A DNA stretch of 64,000 nucleotides from Candidatus Omnitrophota bacterium (GTDB taxonomy: Bacteria; Omnitrophota; Gorgyraeia; Gygaellales; Profunditerraquicolaceae): the NCBI GenBank assembly GCA_023227985.1, contig JALOCB010000003.1, positions 5,260 to 69,259 on the forward strand. Direction: 5' to 3'. The notes below the pieces were generated by a model. The model saw only the letters and a list, made by a program, of their open reading frames with translations, did no database searches and was not told the origin of the DNA. A program made the position numbers and the translations under genes. This document shows, one piece after another, positions 1-35,776 of the stretch; position 1 is the stretch's first letter, and the number at the start of each line of letters is the position of its first letter.

Positions 1-579
1 AGAATGATCCAGCGTCTGGCTATTAATAATGGTACTGCCCACGGCAATAACTATGACGCTGACGGTAAACTTATTGAAACACAGATGAATTTGAAGATGA
101 CCGCGGCGATCGCCGAAGTTATTAAGGCGTATGGTATACAGATAGTCCAGCACGGCGTGACCGGAACGCCTATTAAAAATCTCCAGGCATTGCGTAATGT
201 CGGGATCAGGGCCGCTCATGTCGGGACCAATTGGCAGAATATTATTTGGGAAACTTTAGTTGCCCAGGCGCAGGCGGGTAATTCGACCGCTAAGTCCATA
301 GTAAACCGGATGATCGATGCGACTATCGCTAAGACTGCGGACGTGGAGAAGAAGTATAAAGTATCCGGCCGAAGCGCAGAAGCCAAGGATAGCGTTTATG
401 TCCCGGGAAAAGACAAGAACCTGGACAAGCTGATCGGTAAAGAATTAAAGATGGTATTAGGTGTTTTCAACGACGAGTTGGTTGCTCTTCCTGATGACTT
501 GATTGCCAAGATTGATGAGGCCACCGAAAAATCCGCTACCGAGCATATGCTGGGTTTCGGTTCTGACGGAACAGCCCAG
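1..579 (+). other. Domain: class II FBA, C-terminal two-thirds (N-terminal part lies upstream of the window)
   Basis: LAINNGTAHG and IVQHGVTG match the two His-containing metal-ligand strands. GFGSDGTA matches the conserved FGSxGKA C-terminus of class II aldolases. Confidence 0.75.
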
Positions 580-3500
580 ATGGTAAAGGATGATTATGCG
601 GTTCAGGGGTTGGTTTATCCTGAAGATTTCTCCTCGATCAAAGGATTATATGCCTTTAAGGCGCTCGAAGGAACGGATAAGACGATTATGTGTTGTAATA
701 TACGTTCGCCTCTAAGCATTAGGGGTATTATGCGCGCGGCCCAAAAAACAGGCAGCGTGGTTATTTTTCAGCAGGCAATGAGCGAATTCGATTATACCTG
801 GAAAGGCGGCTATGCCCCGGAGAATGCGGCTAAGCTTGCCCGTAATATCAAAGAAGCTGCAAAAAAAGAAAATTTCCACGATTTCATGATTAAGGGCGAT
901 CATCTTACGGTTAAAGTTGATGATGCTTTCTTGAAGGATAAGGCGGCGCAGGATGCTGTTGCTGTGGTATTTGAGAAAATATTGGATGAACAGGATGTTT
1001 CCAAGCGGGAAGCATTGTTCAACGCTGCATCCAAAGACGAAGTTCTTTTAGCCAATGCCGGCGTAGCTAAAGCAATGAAAGCGGTAAATAAGGCTATGAC
1101 CTTGATCAAAGAAGAAGTTGCTTCGGATTTCACTGTTTTTGCTTTAGACGCGTCATTTATGCCTACCAGGCTTAATGTCCTGGTCAGCGCTTACCTGGCG
1201 GGGTTTATTCCCCAGGATGCAGGTTTGGAAGCTGAAGTTGGCGAGATTGGCGGAAAAGAAAATTCCACGGTTGCCGACGCGTTGGAATTCATTACCGGTA
1301 TCAGGTTCAAGGAAGAGGTTGTGGTCAGCCAGGGAGTGAAATATTCTCAGCTGGTCGGTCCGAGAAGGATCGGTGTTCTTACCGGCGGCGGACCTGCTTC
1401 CGGGCATAACGCGGTGATCGCGGCAATGGTCCGCGAAGCGGAGCAGCGGGGGATCGAGATCGTGGCTATCCCTGAAGGTTGGGCTGGTTTGACCAAGGAT
1501 GAAGTAGCCGCGCAAGCCAAGGTTATAACTATTAAAGATGTGGAAAAGTGGGGGAAGAAAGGCGGCACAATGCTGGGGACCAGCCGCACCAATCCGTATA
1601 AGAAAGAAGGGGACGCCCAGAAGGTTTGGGATAATATCCAGAAGTTAAAGCTTGACGGTCTGGTAACTCTCGGCGGTGATGATACCAACGGGGTTACTTC
1701 CAAACTGCAAAAAGAACATCCGGATTACTTATTCATTGGTCTGCCTAAGACCATGGATAATGATATAGCGCTTCCGGAGAGTGACGCGCAGACCTATGGT
1801 TTTGACAGCTTTACCGTCAAGGCCTCTGAATCGTTCGAGGCTGGAAAGATTGACGCGCAATCTACCCATAGGATACTGATCGCTGAAGTTTTTGGAAGGG
1901 CGGCCGGATTCGTTTCTGCGCGTATCGGGGCCAATATAGGGGCTACCCGCACACTGATCCCTGAAGAATTGGTTGATCTTTCAAAGTTAGTCGAGGATCT
2001 GCGCAGCTATTATAAGAATAATAAATACGGGGTTGTTGTGGTTGCCGAAGGGGCAAGCGTCAATGTTGATGGTTTCAAACTGGATGAAAACGGGGAATTG
2101 ACAGTTGTTAAGCCCGAAGACCCGGATGTAAAATTGTTGCTGGCCGCATTTAAGAGCGATCCTATGGCCAAAGCGGCTTTTATCAAGTCTATGAAAGCCG
2201 AGATGGATGATTTTGGCCACAAAAAACTGGAGAATGTCGGTCTTATTGTCGCAGCTGTGGTAAAAACCGCGTTAAAGGCGGATAAGATCGATATTAGCTT
2301 CGCCGGTAAAGCGGATTATCTTTTTCGCTCCGCCGATGTTTCCAAATTGGACGCTGAAATGACCACTATGCTGGGGAAGGCCGCTGTGGAGAAGATCGCG
2401 GATATCCAGAATGATCAGTTGCTTTACGCTTACAAGGGGCAGATTAAATCCATACCGTTTGCCCGGGAATTAGGCGGAAGGGTCCTGGATTACAAAGGCG
2501 CCCATAAAGATGAATATATGTTGGCCAACCTGGCGCTTATTGATGAAAAAACTGAAATAACGCTTTCGGATGCATCGGTTAATGAGGACTTGTTCCAGGC
2601 AGCGGTTAGAAACTTAAAAGGACTTAACCCGGGCGAATTAATGACTCTGAGTTTTTCGGAGATGAAGGTTTTGTTATGGAAGCTTAATAGCCTTGATCAA
2701 GAAACCGGGGACAATCAGGAAGTAGTTCAGTCTGTCAGAAGGATTCTGCATAGGATAGACGACAGGCAGATAGAACAGGTCAAGAAATTTGCCAATATCG
2801 GCGTGTTTGCCCGAGAAAATACTGCGTATAACCTGGAATCAGTGCTTAAGGATGACAATATCCTGGTTATCGCGGCTAACGCGCTTATTTTTCGCGCCGG
2901 AGCCTTTGCCGAATTCTATCATAATTGGGAGCCGGGAGTTAACCTCGCGGCGATCAAGTCTATGAAAGGCGGCAAAGAAGCTACTGCCGAGGAATTTGTC
3001 CGGCAGAACAGCCGTTATAACGGACCTTTTAGCCCGTATCAGTTAAAAGGTTTGCGCGTGCTTAAGGATGAACGCCGGGTGATTGATGGTGTCGCTGTTA
3101 ATTTCATTTTCGTGCCCGCGGATAAGAATATCGGAAGGCCGGATATCAAGATACCATATTTCGGCCCGGAAACAACTAACCAGCAGGTGCTTGATACTAT
3201 GAAGGCCTTAGGTTTAGAGTTGGATGTCATGGCCTATTACGGCCCGACCAGCGAAACGGTTCAGCCCAGGATATTCAAGGAGTTCATTGAGGCTGGATTG
3301 CCTGTTGTAGCAGCTTCTCCGGTCAACACCGACGCTGTAAAAAATATGCTCAAAGCTAAGTTTCAGCAGGAAGGTGTTGCGGATGATATGCTGGATGAAG
3401 CGGTGAGTAAGGCTTTTAAGGAAGGTTTGTATTCCGCTACCCGTAAAGAAATCGGCGCGGATGTCAAGATCGTGGATACTTTAAGCTGCACTTCCAATGC

Positions 3501-4767
3501 CATGATTTCGGTTATTAAAGCAATGTGGGATAAGTTCGGTATCGATCATGGTACCGGCCTGACTATTCATTCCCAGACTGATTCCAATGAGACTTTCCCG
3601 ATGAAAAGCGGCAGGGCCAGGGATCCCCTGGATATCGCCCGCGGCGATTCCATCCGTGACAACATAATCCCTGCTTCAACCGGCGCAAAAAAGAACCTCT
3701 TTAAGATGATCCCGGAATTAAAAGGCAGGTTCGAGATCACCGCTGTTCGCACCGGTACTGTTTCGGCTTCGACCTGGGAGATGACCATGGACCTTAAGAC
3801 TGAAGTGACCAGGGATGATGTCCTTGCGGCTTTAAAGGATTTCGCCCTGAATAAGACCGACGGGGTGGTGAAATTTCACGAAGGAGACCCGGACAGGAAT
3901 CCCGGGCCTCTGGACGCCAACGCCGTGGTCGGCTGGAATAATGTTTCTATTATCGACAGTTTATTGATCAATGTTCTGGATAATAAGAAAACAGTGACTA
4001 TTAAAGGTTTGTATGATAACCAATCAGCGGCGCCGAATCAAATGGTTTCTAAATGGTCGCCGTGGATGGTTGACGGTTTAAGGCTGCGCCAGATAGTCGG
4101 CGAAAAGAACAGCAAAAAGCTGAACAAAGCCGAAGCTGTAGCGTATGCCAAACTCAACGCCGGTTATGCCGGCCTGCTTAAAGCCGTAAGCGCGGTAAAA
4201 ACCAGCGGAGCTCTGGTGGTCAGCGCTGACGTGGTCTTAAAGAACGCCGGGACGCTTTCATCGCTCAAAGCCTTGAAAGAATCAGGCGCTCTTATTGAGA
4301 TCATTGTCCAGGCGAACAACAAGGCTGTCGCTGATAAAATGGTATCAATGGGCGTTGAACAATTCGCGAGCATTCAGTTCAAGCAGGTTAACGCGATAGT
4401 AGAAGAGTTGAATACCAAAGGTATAACTGATGAAAGAATAGTAGTGCTTAAGACCAAAGCTGAATCGAAAGAAGAAGTCAAGAATACCGTCAAGGTGGTC
4501 AATGTCGGCGAAGCTAAAGTCGCCGAATCTTCTGTTAATGCCATGTCGATAGCAGTGGCAAAGGCAGTAACCACCGTGTTGCAGGATAATACGGAGGTTG
4601 TTGATCAATATCAGCAGATGGCGAAGAATTACGCCGAAGCTAACGACGTCGAGCTAAGCAAACTGGAAGATCTGACCAGCCAGATCTCGGATATGCCGCT
4701 GGTTAAGGTGAGCGAAGAAGTGGTCAAGGCTCAGGTTACTTACGAAGAAACTGTAAACAAGATCTAA
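1..4767 (+). CDS. Giant glycolytic fusion protein 1 (5' partial, frame open to window edge): class II fructose-bisphosphate aldolase + truncated aldolase-like copy + PPi-type 6-phosphofructokinase + GAPDH-like + shared C-terminal module
   Basis: Uninterrupted frame from nt 1 to TAA at 4765-4767. Motifs: LAINNGTAHG, IVQHGVTG, GFGSDGTA (FBA II); GVLTGGGPASGHN, LGGDDTNG, PKTMDNDI (PFK-A family); SCTSNAM, IIPASTGAKK (GAPDH). Confidence 0.85.
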   Translation, partial: RMIQRLAINNGTAHGNNYDADGKLIETQMNLKMTAAIAEVIKAYGIQIVQHGVTGTPIKNLQALRNVGIRAAHVGTNWQNIIWETLVAQAQAGNSTAKSIVNRMIDATIAKTADVEKKYKVSGRSAEAKDSVYVPGKDKNLDKLIGKELKMVLGVFNDELVALPDDLIAKIDEATEKSATEHMLGFGSDGTAQMVKDDYAVQGLVYPEDFSSIKGLYAFKALEGTDKTIMCCNIRSPLSIRGIMRAAQKTGSVVIFQQAMSEFDYTWKGGYAPENAAKLARNIKEAAKKENFHDFMIKGDHLTVKVDDAFLKDKAAQDAVAVVFEKILDEQDVSKREALFNAASKDEVLLANAGVAKAMKAVNKAMTLIKEEVASDFTVFALDASFMPTRLNVLVSAYLAGFIPQDAGLEAEVGEIGGKENSTVADALEFITGIRFKEEVVVSQGVKYSQLVGPRRIGVLTGGGPASGHNAVIAAMVREAEQRGIEIVAIPEGWAGLTKDEVAAQAKVITIKDVEKWGKKGGTMLGTSRTNPYKKEGDAQKVWDNIQKLKLDGLVTLGGDDTNGVTSKLQKEHPDYLFIGLPKTMDNDIALPESDAQTYGFDSFTVKASESFEAGKIDAQSTHRILIAEVFGRAAGFVSARIGANIGATRTLIPEELVDLSKLVEDLRSYYKNNKYGVVVVAEGASVNVDGFKLDENGELTVVKPEDPDVKLLLAAFKSDPMAKAAFIKSMKAEMDDFGHKKLENVGLIVAAVVKTALKADKIDISFAGKADYLFRSADVSKLDAEMTTMLGKAAVEKIADIQNDQLLYAYKGQIKSIPFARELGGRVLDYKGAHKDEYMLANLALIDEKTEITLSDASVNEDLFQAAVRNLKGLNPGELMTLSFSEMKVLLWKLNSLDQETGDNQEVVQSVRRILHRIDDRQIEQVKKFANIGVFARENTAYNLESVLKDDNILVIAANALIFRAGAFAEFYHNWEPGVNLAAIKSMKGGKEATAEEFVRQNSRYNGPFSPYQLKGLRVLKDERRVIDGVAVNFIFVPADKNIGRPDIKIPYFGPETTNQQVLDTMKALGLELDVMAYYGPTSETVQPRIFKEFIEAGLPVVAASPVNTDAVKNMLKAKFQQEGVADDMLDEAVSKAFKEGLYSATRKEIGADVKIVDTLSCTSNAMISVIKAMWDKFGIDHGTGLTIHSQTDSNETFPMKSGRARDPLDIARGDSIRDNIIPASTGAKKNLFKMIPELKGRFEITAVRTGTVSASTWEMTMDLKTEVTRDDVLAALKDFALNKTDGVVKFHEGDPDRNPGPLDANAVVGWNNVSIIDSLLINVLDNKKTVTIKGLYDNQSAAPNQMVSKWSPWMVDGLRLRQIVGEKNSKKLNKAEAVAYAKLNAGYAGLLKAVSAVKTSGALVVSADVVLKNAGTLSSLKALKESGALIEIIVQANNKAVADKMVSMGVEQFASIQFKQVNAIVEELNTKGITDERIVVLKTKAESKEEVKNTVKVVNVGEAKVAESSVNAMSIAVAKAVTTVLQDNTEVVDQYQQMAKNYAEANDVELSKLEDLTSQISDMPLVKVSEEVVKAQVTYEETVNKI
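586..1308 (+). other. Domain: second class II aldolase-like segment, truncated after the EAEVGEIGG strand
   Basis: IMCCNIRSPLSIRGIMRAAQKTGSVVIFQQ, IKGDHL, FALDASFMP and LEAEVGEIGGKE follow the order of FBA II strands 1-6. The GTxHG and HGxSG strands are absent before the PFK domain starts. Confidence 0.55.
1357..2493 (+). other. Domain: 6-phosphofructokinase, PPi-dependent type
   Basis: RIGVLTGGGPASGHN, GGDDT (nt 1672-1686; Asp where ATP-PFKs have Gly), PKTMDNDI, VVVAEGA, DDFGHKKL. Confidence 0.8.
2851..4083 (+). other. Domain: glyceraldehyde-3-phosphate dehydrogenase-like
   Basis: Catalytic-Cys motif SCTSNAM (Cys codon 3487-3489), LTIHSQTD, NIIPASTGAKK, PELKGRFEITAVRTGTVSAS. The N-terminal dinucleotide loop is degenerate (ILVIAANALIFRAG instead of INGFGRIGR). 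Confidence 0.7.
4156..4764 (+). other. Shared C-terminal module, copy 1 (alpha/beta-looking part plus conserved helical tail)
   Basis: Aligns over about 200 aa with the C-terminus of ORF 4926..12698. 25 of the last 34 residues are identical, and a 20-nt stretch ctgaccagccagatctcgga is identical at 4672-4691 and 12603-12622. Confidence 0.8.
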
Positions 4768-4773
4768 CATTCT

Positions 4774-4828
4774 CAAGACCCGGTCTTGCATCCCAATGAG
4801 TCCTAATGGGTTGCAAGACCGGGTCTTG
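4774..4828 (+). repeat. Intercistronic inverted repeat / RNA hairpin: perfect 17-bp arms, 21-nt loop
   Basis: CAAGACCCGGTCTTGCA (4774-4790) is the exact reverse complement of TGCAAGACCGGGTCTTG (4812-4828). Each 15-nt core is itself palindromic. Confidence 0.8.
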
Positions 4829-4925: not shown

Positions 4926-5156
4926 ATGTTCGTAAGGTTATCCCAAAACAACCTGTTCAGGAAGATCGTCGGCATTCTTATTCTTTTACAATTTTCAGCC
5001 GGTTTTGCCGTGATTAGGGGTTATGCTGCTCCCGGAAATTTGCGGCCTGCCGCCGTCAAACAGGATGGTTCCCGGTCCGGGACTATCCAGAATTCGCTTG
5101 ACGCGGCCAGCCTGGATAAGGTTATAAAAACCCCGGTCATTCATAAGGACGGCGGT
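4926..5156 (+). other. Shared N-terminal leader, copy 1 (basic N-terminus, hydrophobic stretch, RGYAAPGNLRPAAVK, then KDGG)
   Basis: Position-by-position alignment with the N-terminus of ORF 12779..17302. Confidence 0.75.
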
Positions 5157-8100
5157 ATAACCGGCCAGGATGTTTTTAAGAATATCCTTGGCGAATACCG
5201 TGTTTCCTCCACGATAAACAATCTCGCTTTCGGGACGTTCGTCCAGGGGCAGATCGACCTTAGTTCGGTTCAGAACCGGGAAGCGCTGGTCAATAATTTC
5301 GGGGAGATTAAGAGCAAAGATCGTTTTTTTACCCTTGAATACGCGGGAATTCCGCTTGCCCTGGTCAAGAAGGCCGAAACCGGAGAAATTACCGTCAAGA
5401 AAGTAGTCGAAGACATTGCTTCGATCCCGCTCAACATCCTTTCCGACAATGCCGAAAAGCTCAAAACCGAAGGTGTTACTTCCTCGGATATCCTGGTCCG
5501 CGATTTTCTTATCCTTGAAAAAAGGTCGCGTATCGACATCACTCAGTGCATGACCGTAGAGTTTGGCGAGCTGCGCGACTACGTATACAATCTGGCTAAA
5601 AATGTCGGCCAGGAAAAGGCACTGGAGATGGCATCGGCGTTTGCGGGTAAGGCTACCGTTGACGAGGCTATGGCGGAAGTCGGCGAGAAAGCTAAGCAGT
5701 TAGGCCGCGACCAAGCGAAGGACACAGGTCTGGCGCTGGCCGGCGGTAAGGGTTTGAGCCTTTCGGTCATGAGCCGCGTGGTTGACGTGCCGCCTGGTTT
5801 GAACGTTACTACTACCGCGTATTTTAAGTTCGTCAAAGATAATAAACAGGTCTGGGAGAAGATCTTTAATGAGCTGCAGACCTTGGATACTATGGATGAC
5901 CAGAAGCGCGACGTTGTCACTTCGGAGATCCGCGATGTCATTAAAAGCGCGCCGATACCCGAAGACATCAAGGCTGAGGTAACAGCAATGTACCACCAGC
6001 TAAGCGTTATCCGTTTTCTTGCCGGTAAACCTTCGCCCGCTCCGGTGGCTGTCCGCTCTTCCGGCACCAAAGAGGATATTCACGTTAAAACCTGGCTGCC
6101 GGTTTCCACCGGTTCCCAGGCCGGCCAGTCGGATACATTCCTTAATGTTAAGGGCGAACGGGATGTCCTGGATAAATTACGCGCCGATTGGGCGTCTTTA
6201 TTTACCGATCGCGCGGTCAGCTACCGTGATGACGCCACCTTCTTGCAGTTCTCTGGAGCCATCGATTTTAACGGTAAGACTTCTCAGGATGTCTATTGGG
6301 GGATCGTGGCGAAGCTTCGGGAATACTCCAAGAAACTGGATAAGCCTGAATATAACGTGTACGCTGACTTAATGAGTAAAGTCACCAGCCCTAACCCTGG
6401 GTCGGTGAGCCTGATGAACGCCATGGAGGAGATCCTGAGACAGGAATCGAATCCGGAGATGTCCAATGCCCTTGCCGTTCTGAAGAAGAAAGCAGAGGAG
6501 GTTGTGCATCCCGAACAGATCGGTATCGACGTTGTGATCATGCAGATGGCTAAGAGTTATCTTGCCGGCGTGCTTTTTACCGTCAATCCGGCGACCAAGA
6601 TGGCCGGTGTGGCCCAGTCGTTATACAAGTCATGGTATATGGGTGATGATTCGCTCGTGTACCGCGACGCGAAGACCGATATTATCCAGGGAACCAGGCC
6701 CATAGTGGTGAGCTTTGATGTGGCCTTCGGCTACGGCGAGAACGTAGTCGGCGGCAAGGTAAACCCGGACAAGTTCATTATGGGCACCTACGACGGCGAG
6801 AGCTGGTTTGTTATCGAGAAAAGCAAAGGCAATAAACTTATTCAGATGAAGGACGTGGAAGAAGTCATCGATCTCCTCAAAGACAAGATATCGGAAAAGG
6901 GCCAGCGGCAGCTCGCTATGACCGTGAAAGACGCGATCGCGTATGATGAGGTCGGCAAGCGGATCAACGGCATTATGGCGACCAAACTCTACGGTATCAA
7001 GTATCTTAAGGCGCTTGAGGGTAAAGAGGAAAGCGATAAAGACAAGAAGGCCCGCGTACAGGCTATCGCCAATGAGATTGCCGACATGGTCAAGAATAAG
7101 GTTTCCGAGGATGAAGTTGTCGCGTTCATCAAGGGTAACTTTGAGGTCGTTAACCGGAAGGGCTATAAAGGCATTCAGGAAATGGCGCTTTCGGGAGTGG
7201 TCAGGGAAGTGTTTGAGAAAGTCCAACAGGCCCAGGCTGAGACCGACCGGGGTATGTTTAAACTCTCAAAGCAGCTCGGCGATATGGGAAAGGCCGATAC
7301 GCTTATCCATATGATCAAGGAGGTTTGGGAGAATAAGGAATTTACTCTTTCCGACCGCCAGGCGATTCTTGACAAACTGAACCTTACCAACCAGGAATTG
7401 CGTAATATGAGTTACCTTATCCGCGCGCTGGTGGATAATAGCTTTACTTCAAATTATGAGACTACTTTAACCCACCAGGATACCTTTACTATGACCGATG
7501 ATCAGGCCCAGTATGTGGCGCGTATGGGTTGGGCGATCACCGAATATTATAAGGATGCCCGAGATATAGAGTATGCCATCGAGATAGATAAAACCGCTTC
7601 TTCCGACAAAGCGGTGAGGCTTTACGTTGTGGACGACCTGGGCAATGTCCAGGGAATGGACAATAATGGCAACCTGGTAACGGTGAAGTCCGAAAAGGAT
7701 AAAGCGCGTATAAAAGAAGCGAAGCTGCGCCTGTATAACGTGCAGGCCCGTCCGTATACCGCGGAATACTTGAAGGTGGATGTAATGCGCGCCCGGACCG
7801 AAGCGGATGAAAAGTGGCTTGAGGAGAATTCTCCTAAAGCGATTGCCAGCGGGACTAAGGGAGAGAACGCGACGCAGGGTTATGTGCTGGTGTTCGATCC
7901 TAACAAAGACGTTGCCTGGCACGCGGACCAGATCCGTCGTTTGAAAGCCGGAGATTTTACTGCGGAGGAAAAAGCCCAGATCATGGCTATGGGGTTTAAT
8001 CCCGAAGAGTATGGTTCAGGCAAAGAAAAGCAATTGTCGGTTATTCTTTATCTGCTTGAAGCTGACCCGAATCATGATCCGATCATGCGCCTGGTTGATT

Positions 8101-11100
8101 CGGTTGTTACTATCCGCGGCGGCGATACCTGCCACGCGGCTATCTTTTGCCGTGAACAAGGGATCCCTGCGGTCACCGGCGCGGGCAAGGTTATACTCAA
8201 CGGCCAATTGCTTAAGACCGGTGACGCGGTTACCGTTGATGCTAATAACGGGAATATTTACGAAATGCCCGCTGATGCCGGAGCGCGCATTCCGATCAAC
8301 TACGTGAAATTCAAGATTAAACCGTATGGCATCCCCGGCGACGACGACAATATGCCGTATCCGGGCATCGGCCAGATCATCGCCGCGGCAAGTGCCGCTC
8401 AGCAGAACTCGCCTATTATGCTTGCGGTTGACGCGGTCGGTAACTCGCTGACCCGCGCCGAGTTCAAAGGCGAAGAGATCGGTATCAACGTTTACGCCGG
8501 CTATGGCCATTATCTTTTACAGCAGATCAAGGCCGGAAAAATAAAGGAGCCAGTGAGGGTGCGTGTCCAGGAATTGATCCAGGGCAAGGTTCCCGGCGCA
8601 AAGAGGTTCGTGGACAATATTGAAAATGTTATGGCAGGCGCTTTTGCCAAGGATCCCGCCGCGCGTTCGGCATATCGCGACATTATGGGTAAGGATTTCA
8701 ATAAGGCGGATAGCCTGCAATTGCTGGAGTTTTTCGATTTGAAGAGCGACATTGAGCTGTATGGATTGGATGCGCTTAAACTGGTAAAACAGCAGGTTGA
8801 TATTCTTGATCTCGTTCCCCGGCTTCCGGAGAATATGTATCAGACGCTTGAATATCTTTATGGCGCCACTCAGCGCAGGCTCAACTATGATTATAATATT
8901 ATCGCCGATCTTCAGAACCATCCGTGGATACTGAAAGAAGTCGATTCTAAACTCGCGGAAAAGGGTTACGCGACGTTCAAGGAATACATCACTAACGAAT
9001 TCCTGTATTTTTACAATTTGATGGGTTTTACCATTGCGCCCGATCAGACCGCCAAGAACAGGGCTTACGATTTCGCCCAGGATAAGATCCGCGGCATGCC
9101 CGGTTCCGAGGTTTTTTCCTGGCCCGGAGTCAATCCGTTGGTCGGTTTGCGCGGTACGTCGTTGGAGATCGAGGCCTTTGACGAAGATTTCGGCGGCAAT
9201 CAGCTGGTATTGGATTTTCTTTTTGATTCCGTGATCCAGGCGCACCAGAATACCGGTAACCAAGCCTGGTTTTATGTGTTTGTCCGTTCTTCCCGGGAGT
9301 TAGAGACCCTGGATAAGATCATTGAGCACAAGGCTAAGCAGACCGGGAAGCTTCCGAAAGAGATCGGGATCATGATCGAAGTTCCCAGTGCCGCTTTGGT
9401 GGCTGATGAGCTTGCTGTTAAGATGTCCGAGATGGAGAAAAAATATAAGAAGTATGGCGTTGAGCATACTTTCTTTTCCTTCGGCACTAACGACTATTCG
9501 CATCTTGCTGGTATGGGTGACCGTGAAGACCCGCGAATGAAACTCAAGATTATGGATCCCGCAGCGATCGAAGCGATCGGCGAGATGAAAGCAGCGGGGT
9601 ATTATTATGATGATGCTGCTAAAGTGCTTCCGTTGATTGATGAAGGCGCTGATGTTATGCAGCAGCTTATGGAAACAGTGGTTGCTGCGGCTAATGGTTC
9701 AAGCGTGGCTACCTCGCTTTGCGGCGAGGCGATCACCGCCCTGGTTAACCGCGGGGATTATGAGACCGCAGGCAAGATAATGGCGCTTCTGGATTCTTTC
9801 GGCGTGAGCATGATGAAAGTCCGCCTCGCAGCTTCAATGACGCGCGTGGACACCATGGCGGCTACCAAAGGGATCACCATTCCGGAAGCCGGACGTTCGA
9901 TCCTGTTCGATTTGTCTGCCGGCGAGGTGAAACAGAAAAAGGGCGTCATCAAGGGCGAGATAATATTCGTTGATAATGCCGATGATCTCGTCCCGAACGT
10001 CCTTAAAGGCCTTCAGGGTCCGGAGCTGACGAAAAAGAAAGAGATGTTCAAGCTCCAGAGCCTGGAAAACGCCCGTTCGACTATGCGTACCTTCAATAAG
10101 ATCGTAATTATCACTAAAAACCTCGTTGCTCAGCAGGAGCCTGAGTTGGTCGCGGAGATGGGCAAAGCCGCATTCAGCAAGTTTGTCAATGACGGCCTGC
10201 TTAAAGATATCGGTAATGGGCAGTATGTCTGGACGAATCTGGGTGTAAAGACGGAGAAGTTCAACCAGGAATTGACAATTCAAGGTTTCTCTGAAAAAGA
10301 ACGTAAAGCTATTGAAGGTTTGTGGCAGAAGGCCTGGGATAACAGCATTGAAGGGCTTGAGCGCCGCGGAATTGATTGGGATGATCTACAATATGCCAAG
10401 GCTATAATCGTTGATGCGGACGTTAACCTTGATGGCTGGGATGTGTTCCGCAAGGACAAGAGTATTATTCCGACCCGTATCAAGGCTACGGTCAAAGGTA
10501 TAAGCTCCCGCCGTGCGGAGTTAGAAGGGCAATTGGCAACTATAGATTACGCCGCTAAGAAGGTCTACAAGGATTTTCTCAGCGTGGAAAAGATCGCTGC
10601 CGTCCTGCGCAGTCTTCCTATCCCAGCGGAAAAGCCTATGATAACTACGCAATCGGCTGTCGCGGAGAACGCCAACAGTGTATACCAGAAGATCGGGTAT
10701 CATCCTAAGCTCCTTCTTGCCTATGAGCGGAATGCTGTGAATGAACTTGGAAAGATATTCGAGGAATATGTAGGCAAGCTGGTTGAAGAAGTTGAAAAAG
10801 TTACTCAGGAGACCGACGTTCAGAAACGCGTATGGCTTTTACAGAAACTGCAGAATAAAGTTGGCGGGCTTGCGGAACCGATGATCAAATCGTTTATGAG
10901 CGATGTGCTTTCCGAGGCCATGCGCACAGGTGCGGTAACGCTGCCGGATAACTGGAACAAGAAGCTTTGGGAGGCCTATCGCAGCGACCTGGAAAGCGAG
11001 ATCAGTAAGATCCTTAACGGAAAGACGGTTGAGCAGTATTTTATCGCGCAGTTCAGCGAACAGATGAAGGAAGTGCTCTCCGCCAACAAAGGGGCATTGG

Positions 11101-12698
11101 TTGTCCATCTTTTGGGAAGCCTCAACTGTGTTGATTTCTTTAATATGAAAGGCGGTTTCCTGGTTGAACAGGTCAATCCCAACCCTGATTACGGCATTCT
11201 TGGAGCGGCGCGCGCAATAGGGGATATGTGGGAGATAAACCGCATGGAATTGTCCGCTTTTAAGGCGGTATGGGATAATCTGCCGGTTGACCAGCGCGGT
11301 AATTTTGGCCTGCAGATCACCAATCTCAAAGGCACCCAGTCCGGCGCGGTGGTGATCGGCTGGCGTAATATTCTGAAACAAACCGGTATTATCCCGGGGC
11401 AAGACGGTTTGCAGGTTGGCGTCAATATCGTCACTCCGGCGGATAGCATCGCTGCGGATAAGTATTTTGAGTACTTTAATACGCTCGGAAGCGGGTTAAG
11501 TTTTATCTCATATGATGCGTTGAAGCTTGGCGCTGCCTGGGCCGGCGTGGATATTTTTTGGAAGGAATGGAGGAGGCTGGCTAAGGAAGATGAGTTGTTG
11601 AGGTTCGGCGTCATGACCGGCTGGATGGCGGAAGCCAAGGCTCTGAGGTTCGGCGGCAAAGTCCTTTCCTTTGATATTTCTGACGAAGCCAAACAGACTG
11701 ACGGCGGCGCTGAGGTTGTGCCTTACCGGGTAGTGGTGGAGAATCTCTTCCGGGGGATCATTAAGAAATATGATGCTTTGGATAACGGCCAAGCTCTTTC
11801 TCTCGAAAAAGAAGAGTTGGAGGCAATACTCTGGATCTTGAATTCTTCTCCTTTTGAGAATATGTCAAGCCCGTTTGCCGCGATCAAGAGTATGAAGAAT
11901 ATCAGGAATGTGATCGAAAGGCTCAGCGATGACCAAAAGAAGGCCCTAAGTGTACTTTCACAGGGCTTGGTTTTTGTCAATCACGGGCTGGATAAAAAGG
12001 TGGCGGCATTGCTCGTAGACAAGAAGTTGCTCGACACCGCATATGAATCCGACACGGCGGTATATAAAGGGTTGAACAGCGGTTTTGACAGCTTCGCCAA
12101 TGCCTTGAAAGAGGTTAAGAATGCCGAGGGCGCTTTAGTGGTTAGCGCAAATGCTGTGTTGAATAACGCCGGAACGCTGAGAGTCCTGAGAGAAATAAAA
12201 GAAACCGGGCTGACCTTGGAAATAATCGTCCGGGCTGATACGGAAGATCAGGTGAATAAGCTGATTGCCCTTCGGGCAGACGAAGTCGCGACTATCCAGG
12301 CCAAGCGGCTGTCAGTTGTGCTCAGCGGCTTGAAGAACGCGGGTATAACCGATGGCAAGATAGTGGTGATTAAAGGCAAAGAAGAAGTAAAAGACGCGGT
12401 AGAAGCCGGCGTAAAGGTCGTAGAGATCTCCATGCCTAAAACAGAGGAGTCCAGTATCAACTCCATGGCCTTAGTTGCGGCAAAAGCGGTAATCATAGTG
12501 TTAAATGGTGAAGAAACGGTTGCCGCGCAATACCGGGAAATGGCGGTAAAATACGCCGCAGATAACAGCGTAACCTCTGAAGAATTGGATGATCTGCAGG
12601 ACCTGACCAGCCAGATCTCGGAGATACCCATGGCCAAGGTCAGCGAAGAAGTCGCTAAGGCGCAGGCCACTTATGAGGAGACTATAAGCAAGATATAA
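4926..12698 (+). CDS. Giant fusion protein 2: leader + PEP-utilising dikinase (PPDK/PpsA family) with large insertions + degenerate duplicate of its His and TIM-barrel domains + shared C-terminal module
   Basis: 2590-codon ORF with GGAGGG 4 nt upstream of the ATG. Motifs: LAGGKGLSLSVM, VAVRSSGTKEDI, GSQAGQSDTFLNV, IRGGDTCHAAIFCREQGIPAVTG (His codon 8133-8135), FFSFGTNDYSHL, SLCGEA. Confidence 0.85.
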   Translation: MFVRLSQNNLFRKIVGILILLQFSAGFAVIRGYAAPGNLRPAAVKQDGSRSGTIQNSLDAASLDKVIKTPVIHKDGGITGQDVFKNILGEYRVSSTINNLAFGTFVQGQIDLSSVQNREALVNNFGEIKSKDRFFTLEYAGIPLALVKKAETGEITVKKVVEDIASIPLNILSDNAEKLKTEGVTSSDILVRDFLILEKRSRIDITQCMTVEFGELRDYVYNLAKNVGQEKALEMASAFAGKATVDEAMAEVGEKAKQLGRDQAKDTGLALAGGKGLSLSVMSRVVDVPPGLNVTTTAYFKFVKDNKQVWEKIFNELQTLDTMDDQKRDVVTSEIRDVIKSAPIPEDIKAEVTAMYHQLSVIRFLAGKPSPAPVAVRSSGTKEDIHVKTWLPVSTGSQAGQSDTFLNVKGERDVLDKLRADWASLFTDRAVSYRDDATFLQFSGAIDFNGKTSQDVYWGIVAKLREYSKKLDKPEYNVYADLMSKVTSPNPGSVSLMNAMEEILRQESNPEMSNALAVLKKKAEEVVHPEQIGIDVVIMQMAKSYLAGVLFTVNPATKMAGVAQSLYKSWYMGDDSLVYRDAKTDIIQGTRPIVVSFDVAFGYGENVVGGKVNPDKFIMGTYDGESWFVIEKSKGNKLIQMKDVEEVIDLLKDKISEKGQRQLAMTVKDAIAYDEVGKRINGIMATKLYGIKYLKALEGKEESDKDKKARVQAIANEIADMVKNKVSEDEVVAFIKGNFEVVNRKGYKGIQEMALSGVVREVFEKVQQAQAETDRGMFKLSKQLGDMGKADTLIHMIKEVWENKEFTLSDRQAILDKLNLTNQELRNMSYLIRALVDNSFTSNYETTLTHQDTFTMTDDQAQYVARMGWAITEYYKDARDIEYAIEIDKTASSDKAVRLYVVDDLGNVQGMDNNGNLVTVKSEKDKARIKEAKLRLYNVQARPYTAEYLKVDVMRARTEADEKWLEENSPKAIASGTKGENATQGYVLVFDPNKDVAWHADQIRRLKAGDFTAEEKAQIMAMGFNPEEYGSGKEKQLSVILYLLEADPNHDPIMRLVDSVVTIRGGDTCHAAIFCREQGIPAVTGAGKVILNGQLLKTGDAVTVDANNGNIYEMPADAGARIPINYVKFKIKPYGIPGDDDNMPYPGIGQIIAAASAAQQNSPIMLAVDAVGNSLTRAEFKGEEIGINVYAGYGHYLLQQIKAGKIKEPVRVRVQELIQGKVPGAKRFVDNIENVMAGAFAKDPAARSAYRDIMGKDFNKADSLQLLEFFDLKSDIELYGLDALKLVKQQVDILDLVPRLPENMYQTLEYLYGATQRRLNYDYNIIADLQNHPWILKEVDSKLAEKGYATFKEYITNEFLYFYNLMGFTIAPDQTAKNRAYDFAQDKIRGMPGSEVFSWPGVNPLVGLRGTSLEIEAFDEDFGGNQLVLDFLFDSVIQAHQNTGNQAWFYVFVRSSRELETLDKIIEHKAKQTGKLPKEIGIMIEVPSAALVADELAVKMSEMEKKYKKYGVEHTFFSFGTNDYSHLAGMGDREDPRMKLKIMDPAAIEAIGEMKAAGYYYDDAAKVLPLIDEGADVMQQLMETVVAAANGSSVATSLCGEAITALVNRGDYETAGKIMALLDSFGVSMMKVRLAASMTRVDTMAATKGITIPEAGRSILFDLSAGEVKQKKGVIKGEIIFVDNADDLVPNVLKGLQGPELTKKKEMFKLQSLENARSTMRTFNKIVIITKNLVAQQEPELVAEMGKAAFSKFVNDGLLKDIGNGQYVWTNLGVKTEKFNQELTIQGFSEKERKAIEGLWQKAWDNSIEGLERRGIDWDDLQYAKAIIVDADVNLDGWDVFRKDKSIIPTRIKATVKGISSRRAELEGQLATIDYAAKKVYKDFLSVEKIAAVLRSLPIPAEKPMITTQSAVAENANSVYQKIGYHPKLLLAYERNAVNELGKIFEEYVGKLVEEVEKVTQETDVQKRVWLLQKLQNKVGGLAEPMIKSFMSDVLSEAMRTGAVTLPDNWNKKLWEAYRSDLESEISKILNGKTVEQYFIAQFSEQMKEVLSANKGALVVHLLGSLNCVDFFNMKGGFLVEQVNPNPDYGILGAARAIGDMWEINRMELSAFKAVWDNLPVDQRGNFGLQITNLKGTQSGAVVIGWRNILKQTGIIPGQDGLQVGVNIVTPADSIAADKYFEYFNTLGSGLSFISYDALKLGAAWAGVDIFWKEWRRLAKEDELLRFGVMTGWMAEAKALRFGGKVLSFDISDEAKQTDGGAEVVPYRVVVENLFRGIIKKYDALDNGQALSLEKEELEAILWILNSSPFENMSSPFAAIKSMKNIRNVIERLSDDQKKALSVLSQGLVFVNHGLDKKVAALLVDKKLLDTAYESDTAVYKGLNSGFDSFANALKEVKNAEGALVVSANAVLNNAGTLRVLREIKETGLTLEIIVRADTEDQVNKLIALRADEVATIQAKRLSVVLSGLKNAGITDGKIVVIKGKEEVKDAVEAGVKVVEISMPKTEESSINSMALVAAKAVIIVLNGEETVAAQYREMAVKYAADNSVTSEELDDLQDLTSQISEIPMAKVSEEVAKAQATYEETISKI
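5688..6845 (+). other. Domain: dikinase N-terminal ATP-grasp (nucleotide-binding) region
   Basis: GGKGLSLS..VPPGLNVTT, VRSSGTKED, QAGQSDTFLNVKG, DRAVSYR, IDVVIMQM..AGVLFTVNP. Confidence 0.75.
7833..8270 (+). other. Domain: phosphohistidine swivel domain
   Basis: GTKGENATQGYVLVF ... ILYLLEADPNHDPIM ... TIRGGDTCHAAIFCREQGIPAVTGAG ... GDAVTVDANNGNIY. Confidence 0.8.
8343..9845 (+). other. Domain: PEP/pyruvate-binding TIM barrel
   Basis: NPLVGLRGTS, GIMIEVPSAAL, FFSFGTNDYSHL, SLCGEA. Confidence 0.75.
9918..11675 (+). other. Degenerate duplicate of the swivel and TIM-barrel domains; catalytic His and GTND motif lost
   Basis: GVIKGEIIFVDNADDL ... AKAIIVDADVNLDGWDVF ... GQLATIDYAAKKVY mirrors the swivel-domain layout without the His. 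EQVNPNPDYGILGAARAI, LQVGVNIVTPADSIAAD and LSFISYDALKLG mirror NPxLGxRG, MIEVPSAAL and FSxGTNDL. Confidence 0.5.
12078..12695 (+). other. Shared C-terminal module, copy 2
   Basis: EGALVVSANAVLNNAGTL..LEIIVRAD..ATIQ..GITDGKIVVIKGK...DLTSQISEIPMAKVSEEVAKAQATYEETISKI aligns with copy 1. Confidence 0.8.
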
Positions 12699-12703
12699 TA
12701 TAT

Positions 12704-12758
12704 TGAGGCCGGGTCTTGTAACCGATTCAAACGCAAGGGAATACAAGACCGGGTCTTG
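12704..12758 (+). repeat. Intercistronic hairpin, second copy: 17-nt arms, 21-nt loop, same core sequence
   Basis: TGAGGCCGGGTCTTGTA (12704-12720) pairs with TACAAGACCGGGTCTTG (12742-12758). As RNA, 16 of 17 positions pair: three DNA mismatches become G-U wobbles and one G-G mismatch remains. The loop length is identical to the 4774..4828 element. Confidence 0.7.
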
Positions 12759-12778
12759 ATAATTAGAGGAGGGAAAAG

Positions 12779-12961
12779 ATGTCCAGGCCGTCTAAAAACA
12801 ATAGTATCTCTAAAATAATTTCCGGCGTTGTGATCGCGCAATTTATCATGAGCAGTATAGCCCTGCGCGGTTATGCCGGCACAGACAATTTAAGGCCGGC
12901 TCCGGTCAAAGATTCCGACCGGATAAGCGTTCTGGCCGATGAATTGCAGAAAGACGGCGGC
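12779..12961 (+). other. Shared N-terminal leader, copy 2 (RGYAGTDNLRPAPVK ... KDGG)
   Basis: Aligns with 4926..5156. Confidence 0.75.
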
Positions 12962-30126: not shown

Positions 30127-31688
<1,562 letters not shown>

Positions 31689-35774: not shown

Positions 35775-35776
35775 AA

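What the first reader, a model, noticed from the sequence alone, without database searches (positions are those of the whole stretch)
4926..5156. Glycolytic megaproteins carry a shared signal-peptide-like N-terminal leader with a conserved RGYA..NLRPAxVK..KDGG motif
The ORF2 and ORF3 N-termini align residue by residue although the downstream enzymes differ. ORF2 starts MFVRLSQNNLFRKIVGILILLQFSAGFAVIRGYAAPGNLRPAAVKQDG...HKDGG. ORF3 starts MSRPSKNNSISKIISGVVIAQFIMSSIALRGYAGTDNLRPAPVKDSD...QKDGG. The layout is a basic N-terminus, a hydrophobic stretch of about 18 residues, then small residues at -3/-1 (G-Y-A). That resembles a Sec signal peptide or signal anchor, which is unexpected for ATP/NAD-dependent cytosolic enzymes. 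xDGG also recurs at two further domain boundaries (SMSDGG before PGK at about nt 13922-13939; KQTDGG at about nt 11693-11710). Inference, with three alternatives: (a) a membrane anchor tethering the pathway to the membrane; (b) targeting to an intracellular compartment or a novel sorting system; (c) genuine export. Whether the ORF1 N-terminus matches cannot be seen because it lies outside the window.
Basis: partly seen in the sequence, partly recalled or inferred. Interest (0 to 1): 0.72.

Follow-up and report, generated by a model that had tools for sequence, protein, structure and literature searches.

The report
Shared export-type leader on fused glycolytic enzymes
In an uncultured Omnitrophota bacterium, all three giant fused glycolysis proteins start with the same conserved secretion-signal-like leader, which by standard rules would send these normally cytoplasmic enzymes to or across the cell membrane.

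Summary
ORF2 (4926-12698) and ORF3 (12779-17302) share the leader. So does ORF1, whose N-terminus I recovered from the parent contig.

About 38 diverged Omnitrophota multi-enzyme proteins carry the same leader. Between them they hold GPI, FBA, PFK, TIM, GAPDH, PGK, enolase and PEP synthase domains. The layout is:
- a basic N-region;
- a 15-20 residue hydrophobic core;
- small-[Y/F]-small;
- D-x-L-R-P, the best conserved part (RGYA is not universal);
- an acidic amphipathic helix;
- D-G-G.

A leader HMM scores these proteins 26-75 bits. Ordinary signal-peptide proteins of the same window score 2.3 bits or less, so this is a specific module and not just any signal peptide.

By charge, hydrophobicity and cleavage-site pattern it looks like a Sec type I signal peptide. 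Export itself is not shown. Biochemical logic argues against it: cofactor needs, and a leaderless phosphoglycerate mutase.

DGG marks module boundaries. It is 3.8-fold enriched, and 0 of 37 copies lie inside domains. It also marks boundaries in the adjacent giant proteins.

The genes form a conserved operon directly after a giant gene. I found no description of this leader in the literature I could reach. Interest is high; localisation is unresolved.

The parts
1..4767 (+). ORF1, 3' 1588 codons of a 1673-aa megaprotein (class II aldolase-like / PFK / GAPDH / C-module). Its leader lies 255 nt upstream of the window (L001 4821-5015).
   Evidence: Pfam; NCBIfam; parent contig and N-terminus; leader HMM 53 bits
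4916..4921 (+). Shine-Dalgarno GGAGGG of ORF2
4926..12698 (+). ORF2, 2590-aa PEP synthase/PPDK-like megaprotein with leader and C-module
4926..5156 (+). ORF2 leader module. n-region 4926-4964, hydrophobic core 4965-5015, RGYA 5016-5027, NLRP 5037-5048, variable polar stretch 5049-5147, DGG 5148-5156.
   Evidence: (62.6 bits)
11700..11708 (+). Internal DGG junction of ORF2 (aa 2259-2261), before the terminal region that ends in the C-module. Conserved in the orthologue at aa 2270.
12045..12695 (+). C-terminal module of ORF2 (about 215 aa). HAD-like Rossmannoid fold without the DxD motif.
4129..4764 (+). C-terminal module of ORF1, 46% identical to that of ORF2
12768..12773 (+). Shine-Dalgarno GGAGGG of ORF3
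12779..17302 (+). ORF3, 1507-aa TIM-like / PGK / enolase megaprotein with leader and a divergent C-module (16646-17299)
12779..12961 (+). ORF3 leader module. n-region 12779-12814, hydrophobic core 12815-12865, RGYA 12866-12877, DNLRP 12884-12898, amphipathic acidic helix 12914-12952, DGG 12953-12961.
   Evidence: (74.6 bits)
13928..13936 (+). Internal DGG junction of ORF3 (aa 384-386), between the TIM-like barrel and PGK, in a segment with pLDDT 25-28

Best explanation
The feature is a lineage-specific, bipartite N-terminal targeting leader. It tags every gene of a conserved Omnitrophota operon of fused glycolytic enzymes. That operon lies directly downstream of a giant 'coat' protein gene.

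Part 1 is a Sec/SRP-type signal sequence: a basic n-region, an uncharged core of 15-20 residues, and a small-[Y/F]-small signal-peptidase-I site.

Part 2 is a post-signal cassette: D-x-L-R-P within 1-8 residues of that site, then a short acidic amphipathic helix ([ILV]xx[DE]L), closed by D-G-G two to three residues before the first enzyme fold.

Most likely mechanism (inferred):
- The signal brings the nascent megaprotein to the cytoplasmic membrane in N-in orientation.
- The enzyme body is then threaded to the outer face and the signal is cut after x-[Y/F]-A.
- The exposed D-x-L-R-P/helix segment serves as a secondary sorting, docking or processing tag. It would keep the enzymes with the giant membrane protein and the locus's secretion and uptake machinery.

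DGG is the general module-boundary element of these megaproteins and of the giant proteins. It could be a hinge or a processing site.

Shown: the leader exists, is translated, is conserved, is specific to these proteins, lies in a disordered pre-domain segment, and follows signal-peptide rules.
Inferred: membrane targeting (about 0.85), location outside the cytoplasm (about 0.5), cleavage (about 0.45), and any role for D-x-L-R-P or DGG.

The confidence given (0.5) is for the whole statement, including the extracytoplasmic placement.
For: Conservation:
- A whole-library profile search (1.84 billion representatives) returned about 40 proteins of 450-3000 aa. The leader HMM matches 35 of them (3 more are fragments, 2 are unrelated TIM fusions).
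- Five matched the profile through the leader alone at library-wide E = 1e-6 to 5e-4: P0033, P0041, P0060, P0062 and P0079.
- All named members are Candidatus Omnitrophota.

Specificity:
- The leader HMM gives 30-75 bits to every megaprotein in 446 ORFs from the window and 7 loci.
- The next best score is 8.7 bits.
- The window's ordinary signal-peptide proteins score 2.3 bits or less.

Translation:
- Strong SD sites and upstream in-frame stops define the starts.
- Between orthologues there are 14-16 synonymous against 14-21 non-synonymous codon differences, with the motif residues kept.

Signal-peptide features:
- Mean net charge is +2.9 before the core and +0.27 after it.
- KD19 hydrophobicity is 1.7-2.0 for ORF2 and ORF3. 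Bona fide signal peptides of the same window score 1.7-2.1; true TM anchors score 2.9-3.2.
- [small][YFH][small] precedes LRP in 26 of 37 leaders, against a 9.7% background. The window's other signal peptides end the same way (MAYA, GAYA, GFA).
- No other hydrophobic segment occurs in ORF1-3.

Structure (AlphaFold2 of ORF3 1-392):
- Residues 1-49 have pLDDT below 50.
- A helix spans 46-58 and DGG is at 59-61.
- The TIM barrel begins at residue 63 with pLDDT 85-98.

Context:
- The order giant gene, 509/511-aa protein, ORF1, ORF2, ORF3 is conserved.
- PilZ, a sugar ABC transporter and a GH2 follow. West-Roberts et al. 2023 describe this kind of locus downstream of giant genes.
- The same paper predicts glycolysis-type domains inside giant proteins to be extracellular.
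- A leaderless canonical enolase coexists with the fused one. The fused enolase keeps all catalytic motifs.
Against: - PFK, GAPDH, PGK and PEP synthase need ATP/ADP, NAD or PPi. These are not expected outside the cytoplasm.
- No phosphoglycerate mutase or hexokinase domain was found in any leader-bearing protein scanned. The window's apgM and ROK kinase are leaderless. An exported set would therefore be interrupted between PGK and enolase.
- ORF2 and ORF3 carry net +2 to +3 charge in the 15 residues after the core, including an Arg at -4 of the putative cleavage site. This is atypical for efficient Sec export.
- ORF1's core is as hydrophobic as a TM anchor (KD19 2.75).
- Omnitrophota of this type are thought to live by glycolysis. 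If the megaproteins are the only copies of most steps, a cytoplasmic site is needed. I could not check copy number genome-wide.
- No signal-peptide predictor or experimental data were available.
Confidence: 0.5

Rival explanations
1. Uncleaved membrane tether with the enzymes on the cytoplasmic face. The hydrophobic segment only pins the glycolytic megaproteins to the inner side of the membrane, next to the giant protein and the sugar ABC importer. This would form a membrane-bound glycolytic metabolon that uses cytosolic cofactors.
For: - Cofactor needs of the enzymes argue for the cytosol.
- Leaderless apgM and ROK must supply the missing steps, and no PGM or hexokinase domain occurs in the leader-bearing proteins.
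- A sugar ABC transporter sits directly downstream.
- DGG junctions flank a CheR methyltransferase and a six-helix cation-efflux domain in a giant protein tail. Those junctions are presumably cytoplasmic.
- A 2026 preprint reads many membrane-anchored Omnitrophota metabolic domains as cytoplasm-facing.
Against: - The charge bias (+2.9 N-side against +0.27 C-side) predicts N-in/C-out, not C-in.
- A C-in topology would require moving a 10-14 residue tail with 3-4 positive charges across the membrane.
- A conserved small-[Y/F]-small site with Pro/Gly helix breakers before it has no purpose in an uncleaved anchor.
- ORF2 and ORF3 cores are less hydrophobic than real anchors in the window.
- The second, leaderless enolase would be redundant.
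Confidence: 0.28
2. An ordinary signal peptide plus shared ancestry. The similarity only reflects duplication and domain shuffling from one ancestral secreted protein. D-x-L-R-P and DGG would have no sorting or processing role.
For: - All carriers belong to one operon family with clear domain shuffling: TIM-PGK-enolase, PGK-GAPDH-TIM-enolase, TIM-GAPDH, GPI-GAPDH.
- Every module boundary, not only the leader, carries DGG.
Against: - Leaders have diverged to 27% mean column identity, yet the L of LRP stays at 90% or more and R and DGG at 70% or more.
- The linker between them varies from 5 to 35 residues. That is the pattern of selection on the motifs themselves.
- The n-region and core also keep specific residues (K before the core, Q-F inside it).
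- Signal peptides normally diverge beyond recognition at this distance. The leader alone was detectable in 1.84 billion sequences.
Confidence: 0.12
3. Targeting to a separate membrane-bounded compartment, or delivery into or onto prey, through a dedicated sorting route. This would be a bacterial counterpart of glycosomal targeting or of parasite host-targeting leaders.
For: - The bipartite layout (signal peptide, then a short conserved motif within a few residues, then an acidic stretch) is specific to one pathway.
- The locus is tied to the giant surface protein and, per the literature, to a T2SS/T4P-like secretion system.
- The lineage is reported as predatory or epibiotic.
Against: - No compartment is known in these cells.
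- No dedicated sorting enzyme was identified. The conserved 509-aa neighbour has no recognisable family.
- No secretion genes lie in the 92 kb I could read.
- The idea rests on analogy only.
Confidence: 0.1
4. Artefact: the true starts lie downstream and the hydrophobic segment is not translated.
For: Alternative in-frame GTG, TTG or ATG codons exist at aa 10-39.
Against: - Strong SD sites lie 4-5 nt before each annotated ATG, and in-frame stops lie 15-42 nt upstream.
- Amino-acid-level conservation of the whole leader holds across about 38 proteins from NCBI, JGI, ENA and Logan assemblies.
Confidence: 0.02

Closest known systems
Sec-dependent type I signal peptides (SPase I substrates)
   Same: Tripartite n/h/c layout, positive n-region, uncharged core, small residues at -3/-1 with an aromatic at -2. 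Other exported proteins of the same window show the same pattern.
   Different: The n-region is long (10-14 aa). Specific residues are conserved inside the core (Q-F). A basic residue often sits at -4/-5. An obligatory D-x-L-R-P ... DGG cassette follows. The cargo is a set of central glycolytic enzymes.
Omnitrophota giant proteins ('Archaeovorins'; West-Roberts et al. 2023 bioRxiv 10.1101/2023.11.21.568195) and multi-enzyme giants (2026 preprint 10.64898/2026.06.07.730766)
   Same: Same phylum and same locus. They contain TIM, GPI, FBA and PPDK-type domains predicted to be extracellular or membrane-associated. Cleavage into pieces has been proposed. They share the DGG boundary motif.
   Different: The proteins here are separate genes of 0.45-2.6 kaa. 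They have a single N-terminal hydrophobic segment, their own D-x-L-R-P leader and a common C-module. Neither paper mentions this leader, the operon or DGG.
Double-glycine leaders cut by C39 peptidases (bacteriocin/PCAT systems)
   Same: Gly-Gly ends the leader, preceded by an acidic amphipathic [ILV]xx[DE]L helix. C39 domains are reported as common in Omnitrophota giant proteins.
   Different: The leader here begins with a hydrophobic Sec-type core. Position -3 is Asp and -4 is usually K/N/Q rather than hydrophobic. The spacing of E-L to GG varies. No C39 or ABC exporter was found in the DNA I could read.
Host-targeting leaders of eukaryotic parasites (Plasmodium PEXEL RxLxE/Q/D; oomycete RxLR-dEER) (my own knowledge)
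   Same: A signal peptide followed at short distance by a small L-R/R-x-L type motif and an acidic stretch. They mark a defined set of proteins in a host-dependent organism.
   Different: Those are eukaryotic ER-based systems with a different motif. No evidence here of cleavage at the motif or of delivery into prey. This is analogy only.
Compartment-targeted glycolysis: kinetoplastid glycosomes (PTS1/PTS2) and the stramenopile mitochondrial TPI-GAPDH fusion with presequence (my own knowledge)
   Same: Glycolytic enzymes, some fused, carry dedicated targeting signals that move part of the pathway out of the cytosol.
   Different: Those are eukaryotic organelles. Here the signal is Sec-like, and no compartment other than the periplasm or cell surface is known.
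Moonlighting surface glycolytic enzymes of bacteria (enolase, GAPDH and others) (my own knowledge)
   Same: Glycolytic enzymes outside the cytoplasm.
   Different: Those lack signal peptides and are the single housekeeping copy. Here a dedicated, leader-tagged, fused second set exists, at least for enolase.

Membership tests
Sec type I signal peptide | Positively charged n-region | tested here: met
   Mean net +2.9 over 37 leaders; ORF1 +2, ORF2 +3, ORF3 +3
Sec type I signal peptide | Uncharged hydrophobic core, less hydrophobic than a TM anchor | tested here: met
   ORF2/ORF3 cores are 17 aa with KD19 1.7-2.0, like five other signal peptides of the window and below two anchors (2.9-3.2). ORF1 at 2.75 is anchor-like.
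Sec type I signal peptide | Small residues at -3/-1 after a helix breaker | tested here: met
   [small][YFH][small] within 13 aa before LRP in 26/37 against 9.7% background. The rest have ASA/AAA/AMA/ALA/VHA. Pro/Gly is common before it.
Sec type I signal peptide | Neutral or acidic early mature region | tested here: inconclusive
   The family mean is +0.27, but ORF2/ORF3 are +2 to +3 in the 15 aa after the core. The D of D-x-L-R-P offsets the R.
Sec type I signal peptide | Actual translocation and cleavage | not testable with these tools
   No predictor (SignalP/DeepTMHMM) or proteomic data available
Lipoprotein (SPase II) signal | Lipobox L-x-x-C with Cys at +1 | tested here: not met
   No Cys at the end of the core in ORF1-3 or the family alignment. 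The window's SBP has LSGC.
Tat signal | Twin-arginine S/T-R-R-x-F-L-K in the n-region | tested here: not met
   Absent from the 37-leader alignment
Type IV pilin / class III signal | Short leader, G|F/M, Glu at +5 before the hydrophobic stretch | tested here: not met
   No such motif in any leader
Double-glycine (C39) leader peptide | Gly-Gly at the end of the leader | tested here: met
   DGG within 41-75 aa of the start in about 28 of 37 leaders
Double-glycine (C39) leader peptide | No Sec core; hydrophobic residues at -4/-7/-12 and Glu at -8 in fixed register | tested here: not met
   A Sec-type core is present. Position -1 relative to D is K/N/A/Q/R, and the spacing of [DE]L to GG varies by 2-6 residues.
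Double-glycine (C39) leader peptide | Cognate C39 peptidase or ABC exporter encoded nearby | tested here: not met
   None among called genes of contig positions 39-118 kb, nor in two giant-protein tails. The giant's N-terminal part is not available.
Archaeovorin-type giant protein | Single ORF of tens of thousands of residues with many TM helices | tested here: not met
   ORF1-3 are 1507-2590 aa with one N-terminal hydrophobic segment. They are neighbours of such a gene (14,046+ aa; 30,339 aa in a relative).
HAD superfamily (for the shared C-terminal module) | Rossmannoid HAD core fold | tested here: met
   [not shown]
HAD superfamily (for the shared C-terminal module) | Catalytic DxDx[TV] after strand 1 | tested here: not met
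   The consensus is hhhh-x-A-[DN]-x-V-L-N-N-A-G. No conserved acidic pair.
BMC / encapsulin cargo-targeting peptide | Short amphipathic helix plus shell genes in the neighbourhood | tested here: not met
   The core is uniformly hydrophobic, and no shell or encapsulin Pfam occurs among neighbours

The most novel reading that the evidence does not exclude
Omnitrophota of this type make an almost complete, catalytically intact, PPi-type glycolytic pathway as leader-tagged polyproteins. These are exported by Sec and sorted by the D-x-L-R-P tag to the giant 'coat' protein. There they are perhaps cut at DGG junctions, so that sugar-phosphate breakdown runs outside the cytoplasm, in the periplasm or at the predator-prey contact. 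More generally, DGG would be the punctuation that lets giant ORFs work as polyproteins of independent modules.
Probability: 0.2. Interest if true: 0.95.

Novelty: new variant of a known kind. Interest (0 to 1): 0.78.

Why it matters
Glycolytic enzymes are the textbook cytosolic proteins.

A conserved, pathway-wide signal-peptide-like leader in a whole bacterial lineage points to one of two things. Either central metabolism, or a second copy of it, is placed at or beyond the membrane in these ultra-small predatory or epibiotic bacteria. Or standard topology rules fail for them.

Either outcome bears on how Omnitrophota feed. It also bears on what their giant proteins do, which two recent papers leave open. 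They predict 'extracellular' metabolic domains but doubt the prediction.

The leader HMM and the DGG boundary rule give concrete handles:
- They define cargo sets.
- They cut giant proteins into modules for structure prediction.
- They predict exact N-termini that existing metaproteomes can confirm or refute.

Tried and rejected
- **Leader-only database searches.** Searches with 3 and then 37 leaders found nothing, because E-values are scaled to 5.8 billion sequences. The ORF3 N-terminus found one relative.
- **Genome scan.** The genome-contig scan returned only two unrelated TIMs. The first metagenome query had no usable conserved stretch. The second gave 5 loci.
- **Known families for the leader.** Pfam and NCBIfam have no family for the leader or the C-module.
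- **Mis-called start.** Rejected on SD sites, upstream stops and conservation.
- **DNA- or RNA-level signal behind DGG.** The GAC-GGC bias is the general codon context of Asp-Gly and Gly-Gly in these genes (Fisher P = 0.26 and 0.32). Rejected.
- **DGG as a site for a protease confined to one side of the membrane.** This is weakened. In P0092, DGGs flank a single predicted TM helix on both sides. In a giant tail they flank CheR and a 6-helix transporter.
- **C39 peptidase nearby.** Not found.
- **The 509-aa neighbour as a protease.** No Pfam or PDB sequence match. Unsupported.
- **A hidden PGM domain.** None in the unannotated parts of ORF2, P0008 or P0016.
- **Literature access.** Kizina et al. 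2022 (AEM; PMC9004380) describes the closest cultured relative and may mention these fusions. It is not in the library. Prior description there cannot be excluded.
Full report
**What is in the window**

Three consecutive + strand genes fill the first 17.3 kb.
- ORF1 runs in from the left edge and ends at 4767.
- ORF2 is 4926-12698 (2590 aa).
- ORF3 is 12779-17302 (1507 aa).

Pfam and NCBIfam identify these domains:
- ORF1: class II aldolase, PFK and GAPDH parts.
- ORF2: a PEP synthase/PPDK-like enzyme with large insertions.
- ORF3: TIM-like, PGK and enolase. The enolase reaches the NCBIfam equivalog cut-off.

The window is part of a 137-kb ENA metagenome contig. Relatives that carry a name are all 'Candidatus Omnitrophota/Omnitrophica bacterium'.

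**Observation check**

They align at 40% identity over 55 residues, E = 2e-10. In a six-frame scan of the whole window, RGYA followed by NLRP occurs only at these two places.

The starts are well defined. A GGAGGG (ORF2, ORF3) or AGGGGG (ORF1) Shine-Dalgarno lies 4-5 nt before the ATG. In-frame stops lie 15-42 nt upstream.

The parent contig gave the missing ORF1 N-terminus. It shows a basic start, a 23-residue hydrophobic stretch, AAAG, then SNLRPKAV and ..NKDGG. All three megaproteins therefore carry the leader, but RGYA is not universal.

The two internal xDGG motifs are at 13928-13936 and 11700-11708.

**Conservation elsewhere**

A profile of the ORF3 N-terminus plus its one database relative was run against 1.84 billion cluster representatives. 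It returned about 40 multi-enzyme proteins of 450-3000 aa. The leader HMM matches 35 of them. Three more are fragments and two are unrelated TIM fusions.

Five proteins matched the profile only through the leader, at library-wide E = 1e-6 to 5e-4:
- a TIM-PGK fusion;
- a TIM-GAPDH-type protein;
- a cupin-type GPI protein;
- a PEP synthase;
- a 454-aa protein of unknown domain.

The leader is therefore a portable module.

Across 37 leaders the mean column identity is only 27%. The L of LRP is at 90% or more. R, DGG, a Lys before the core and a Phe inside it are at 70% or more.

Cargo domains found behind the leader are GPI, FBA, PFK, TIM, GAPDH, PGK, enolase and PEP synthase, in many different orders.

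A leader HMM was run on 446 ORFs from the window and seven related loci. It scored every megaprotein at 30-75 bits. The next best hit scored 8.7 bits. The window's ordinary signal-peptide proteins (sugar-binding lipoprotein, GH2, phosphate-binding protein and others) scored 2.3 bits or less.

Orthologous leaders differ by as many synonymous as non-synonymous codon changes while keeping the motifs.

**Anatomy**

The leader consists of:
- an n-region of 10-14 residues with 2-4 Lys/Arg;
- an uncharged core of 15-20 residues, often with Q-F in the middle;
- frequent Pro/Gly;
- small-[Y/F]-small (GYA, SYA, AYA, AFA; otherwise ASA, AAA, AMA);
- 1-8 residues;
- [D/S/E]-[N/K/H/Q/S]-L-R-[P/A/K/T];
- 5-35 variable polar residues that usually end in an amphipathic [ILV]xx[DE]L helix;
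- [K/R/N/Q]-D-G-G.

In an AlphaFold2 model of ORF3 1-392:
- residues 1-49 are low-confidence;
- a helix spans 46-58;
- DGG is at 59-61;
- the TIM barrel starts at 63 with pLDDT 85-98;
- the second DGG (384-386) lies in a tail with pLDDT 25-28 just before PGK.

**Is it a signal peptide?**

- The charge bias (+2.9 before the core, +0.27 after) predicts N-in.
- The ORF2 and ORF3 cores have KD19 1.7-2.0. Five bona fide signal peptides of the same window have 1.7-2.1; two true anchors have 2.9-3.2. ORF1 is more anchor-like at 2.75.
- The small-aromatic-small site matches how other exported proteins of this organism end their signal peptides (MAYA|Q, GAYA|A, GFA|Q).
- There is no lipobox, twin-arginine or pilin motif, and no second hydrophobic segment.

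By standard rules these are Sec type I signal peptides, or N-in signal anchors. Either way the enzymes would face away from the cytoplasm. I had no dedicated predictor and no experimental data, so export is inferred, not shown.

**DGG**

DGG is a second finding in its own right.
- DGG occurs 72 times in the family against 19.4 +/- 4.3 expected. Among all xGG tripeptides only D-GG is enriched, at 3.8-fold.
- Positions are conserved between orthologues: ORF2 75/2259 against 74/2270, and ORF3 59/384 against 62/390 and 56/383.
- None of 37 DGGs lies inside a Pfam or C-module envelope, although these cover 39% of residues (binomial P = 1e-8).
- The 12 residues before DGG are more hydrophilic than average (P = 2e-4).

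The motif extends to the neighbouring giant proteins:
- 4 in 1017 aa against 0.35 expected;
- 9 in 2752 aa against 1.2 expected;
- 14 in a 3624-aa HEAT-repeat protein.

In one giant tail the DGGs bracket DUF1152, CheR, a cation-efflux domain and UPF0146 one by one.

The 38 other proteins of the window have 2 DGGs against 4.6 expected.

The codon bias at DGG is explained by general codon context, so the motif is selected at protein level.

By hydropathy, DGGs flank single helices and odd-numbered helix clusters. They therefore probably occur on both sides of the membrane. This argues against a single compartment-bound protease and leaves hinge, self-processing or two-sided processing open.

**Context**

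The gene order giant gene, 509/511-aa protein, ORF1, ORF2, ORF3 is conserved in independent JGI contigs. The giant gene is over 14,046 aa here and 30,339 aa in a relative. Other relatives have three or four leader genes in a row.

Downstream are PilZ, a sugar ABC transporter and glycoside hydrolases. West-Roberts et al. 2023 describe this locus type downstream of giant genes. They do not mention the glycolytic operon.

That paper reports TIM, GPI, FBA and PPDK-type domains inside giant proteins 'predicted to be in an extracellular region', and doubts the prediction. It also proposes cleavage by C39 or S8 domains. A 2026 preprint finds 94% of long Omnitrophota proteins with a signal peptide or TM helices.

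All three megaproteins also share a C-terminal module of about 215 aa. It has a confident HAD-like fold but no DxD motif.

**Arguments about location**

For a separate location:
- The window also encodes a leaderless canonical enolase (30393-31658, minus strand).
- The fused enolase is only 36% identical to it but keeps every catalytic motif.

Against export:
- No leader-bearing protein scanned contains a phosphoglycerate mutase or hexokinase domain.
- The window's apgM (47544-48830) and ROK kinase (41355-42593) have no leader.
- The enzymes need nucleotides, NAD and PPi.
- I could not survey a whole genome for leaderless copies of the other steps.

**Verdict**

The best reading is a lineage-specific bipartite targeting leader: a Sec-type signal plus a D-x-L-R-P/helix cassette, closed by the general DGG module boundary. 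It brings the glycolytic megaproteins to the membrane beside the giant protein.

My estimates are about 0.85 for membrane targeting, about 0.5 for an extracytoplasmic location, and about 0.28 for a cytoplasmic-face tether.

I found no description of the leader, the operon or the DGG rule in the literature I could read.

Noticed in passing
[not shown]
   Followed up: partly
L001 1-3054; L007 1-8256; P0092/P0017: DGG punctuates the giant proteins too. In the L007 giant tail, successive DGGs bracket DUF1152, CheR, a cation-efflux (CDF) domain and UPF0146 one by one. The giant ORFs look like strings of otherwise independent proteins separated by DGG linkers.
   Followed up: partly
L001 3259-4788 (just upstream of the window); L007 8452-9987; L011 526-2103: A conserved 509-525 aa protein with an N-terminal hydrophobic segment sits between the giant gene and ORF1. 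It has invariant IQIQDAHCNYEAQKNLA and ITGGFHT motifs. No Pfam or PDB sequence match. It is a candidate partner or processing factor for the leader, so far without support.
   Followed up: partly
window 4774-4828 and 12710-12758: The ORF1-ORF2 and ORF2-ORF3 spacers each hold a long hairpin built on CAAGACC(C/G)GGTCTTG (7 matches against 0.06 expected). It could be a terminator, attenuator or RNA-processing element between the megaprotein genes.
   Followed up: partly
window 30393-31658 (-), 47544-48830 (+), 41355-42593 (+): The window holds a leaderless canonical enolase (next to DivIC and FtsH), a cofactor-independent phosphoglycerate mutase (apgM type) and a ROK kinase. PGM and hexokinase are the two glycolytic steps never found behind the leader.
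   Followed up: yes
window 1-370 and about 700-1350 (ORF1): Directly after the ORF1 leader comes a segment matching positions 167-273 of the class II aldolase profile. N-terminal-type aldolase sequence appears further downstream. This may be a circularly permuted or split aldolase.
   Followed up: no
window about 1620-1750 (ORF1 PFK domain): The PFK domain has GGDDT and PKTMDND, residues that by my knowledge mark PPi-dependent PFKs. Together with the PEP synthase/PPDK-like ORF2 this suggests a PPi-economising pathway.
   Followed up: no
window 12995-13010 (ORF3 aa 73-78): In ORF3 and its closest relatives, the Lys that corresponds to catalytic Lys12 of TIM (N-x-K in AENFKVGG of other members) is Ile/Phe (AENTIVGD). 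The TIM-like domain may have an altered mechanism or activity.
   Followed up: no
window 17508-18701: A 397-aa protein of unknown family directly after ORF3 holds the only two DGGs among the 38 other window proteins, both as DGGG.
   Followed up: no
megaprotein and giant genes of L001, L007, L009, L011: There is strong codon-context bias. Asp before Gly is GAC in 73-83% of cases against 35% elsewhere. The first Gly of any Gly-Gly is GGC in about 80%.
   Followed up: yes
L014 18173-21164 (contig beyond the window's right end): Another long gene (2751 aa called) with a HAD-type acid phosphatase stretch lies about 9 kb past the window end. The contig carries several very long genes.
   Followed up: no
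window 34986-39767 (-): A complete Rnf complex operon (RnfB/A/E/D/G/C) is present. This fits the fermentative, ferredoxin-based energy metabolism described for Velamenicoccus-type Omnitrophota.
   Followed up: no
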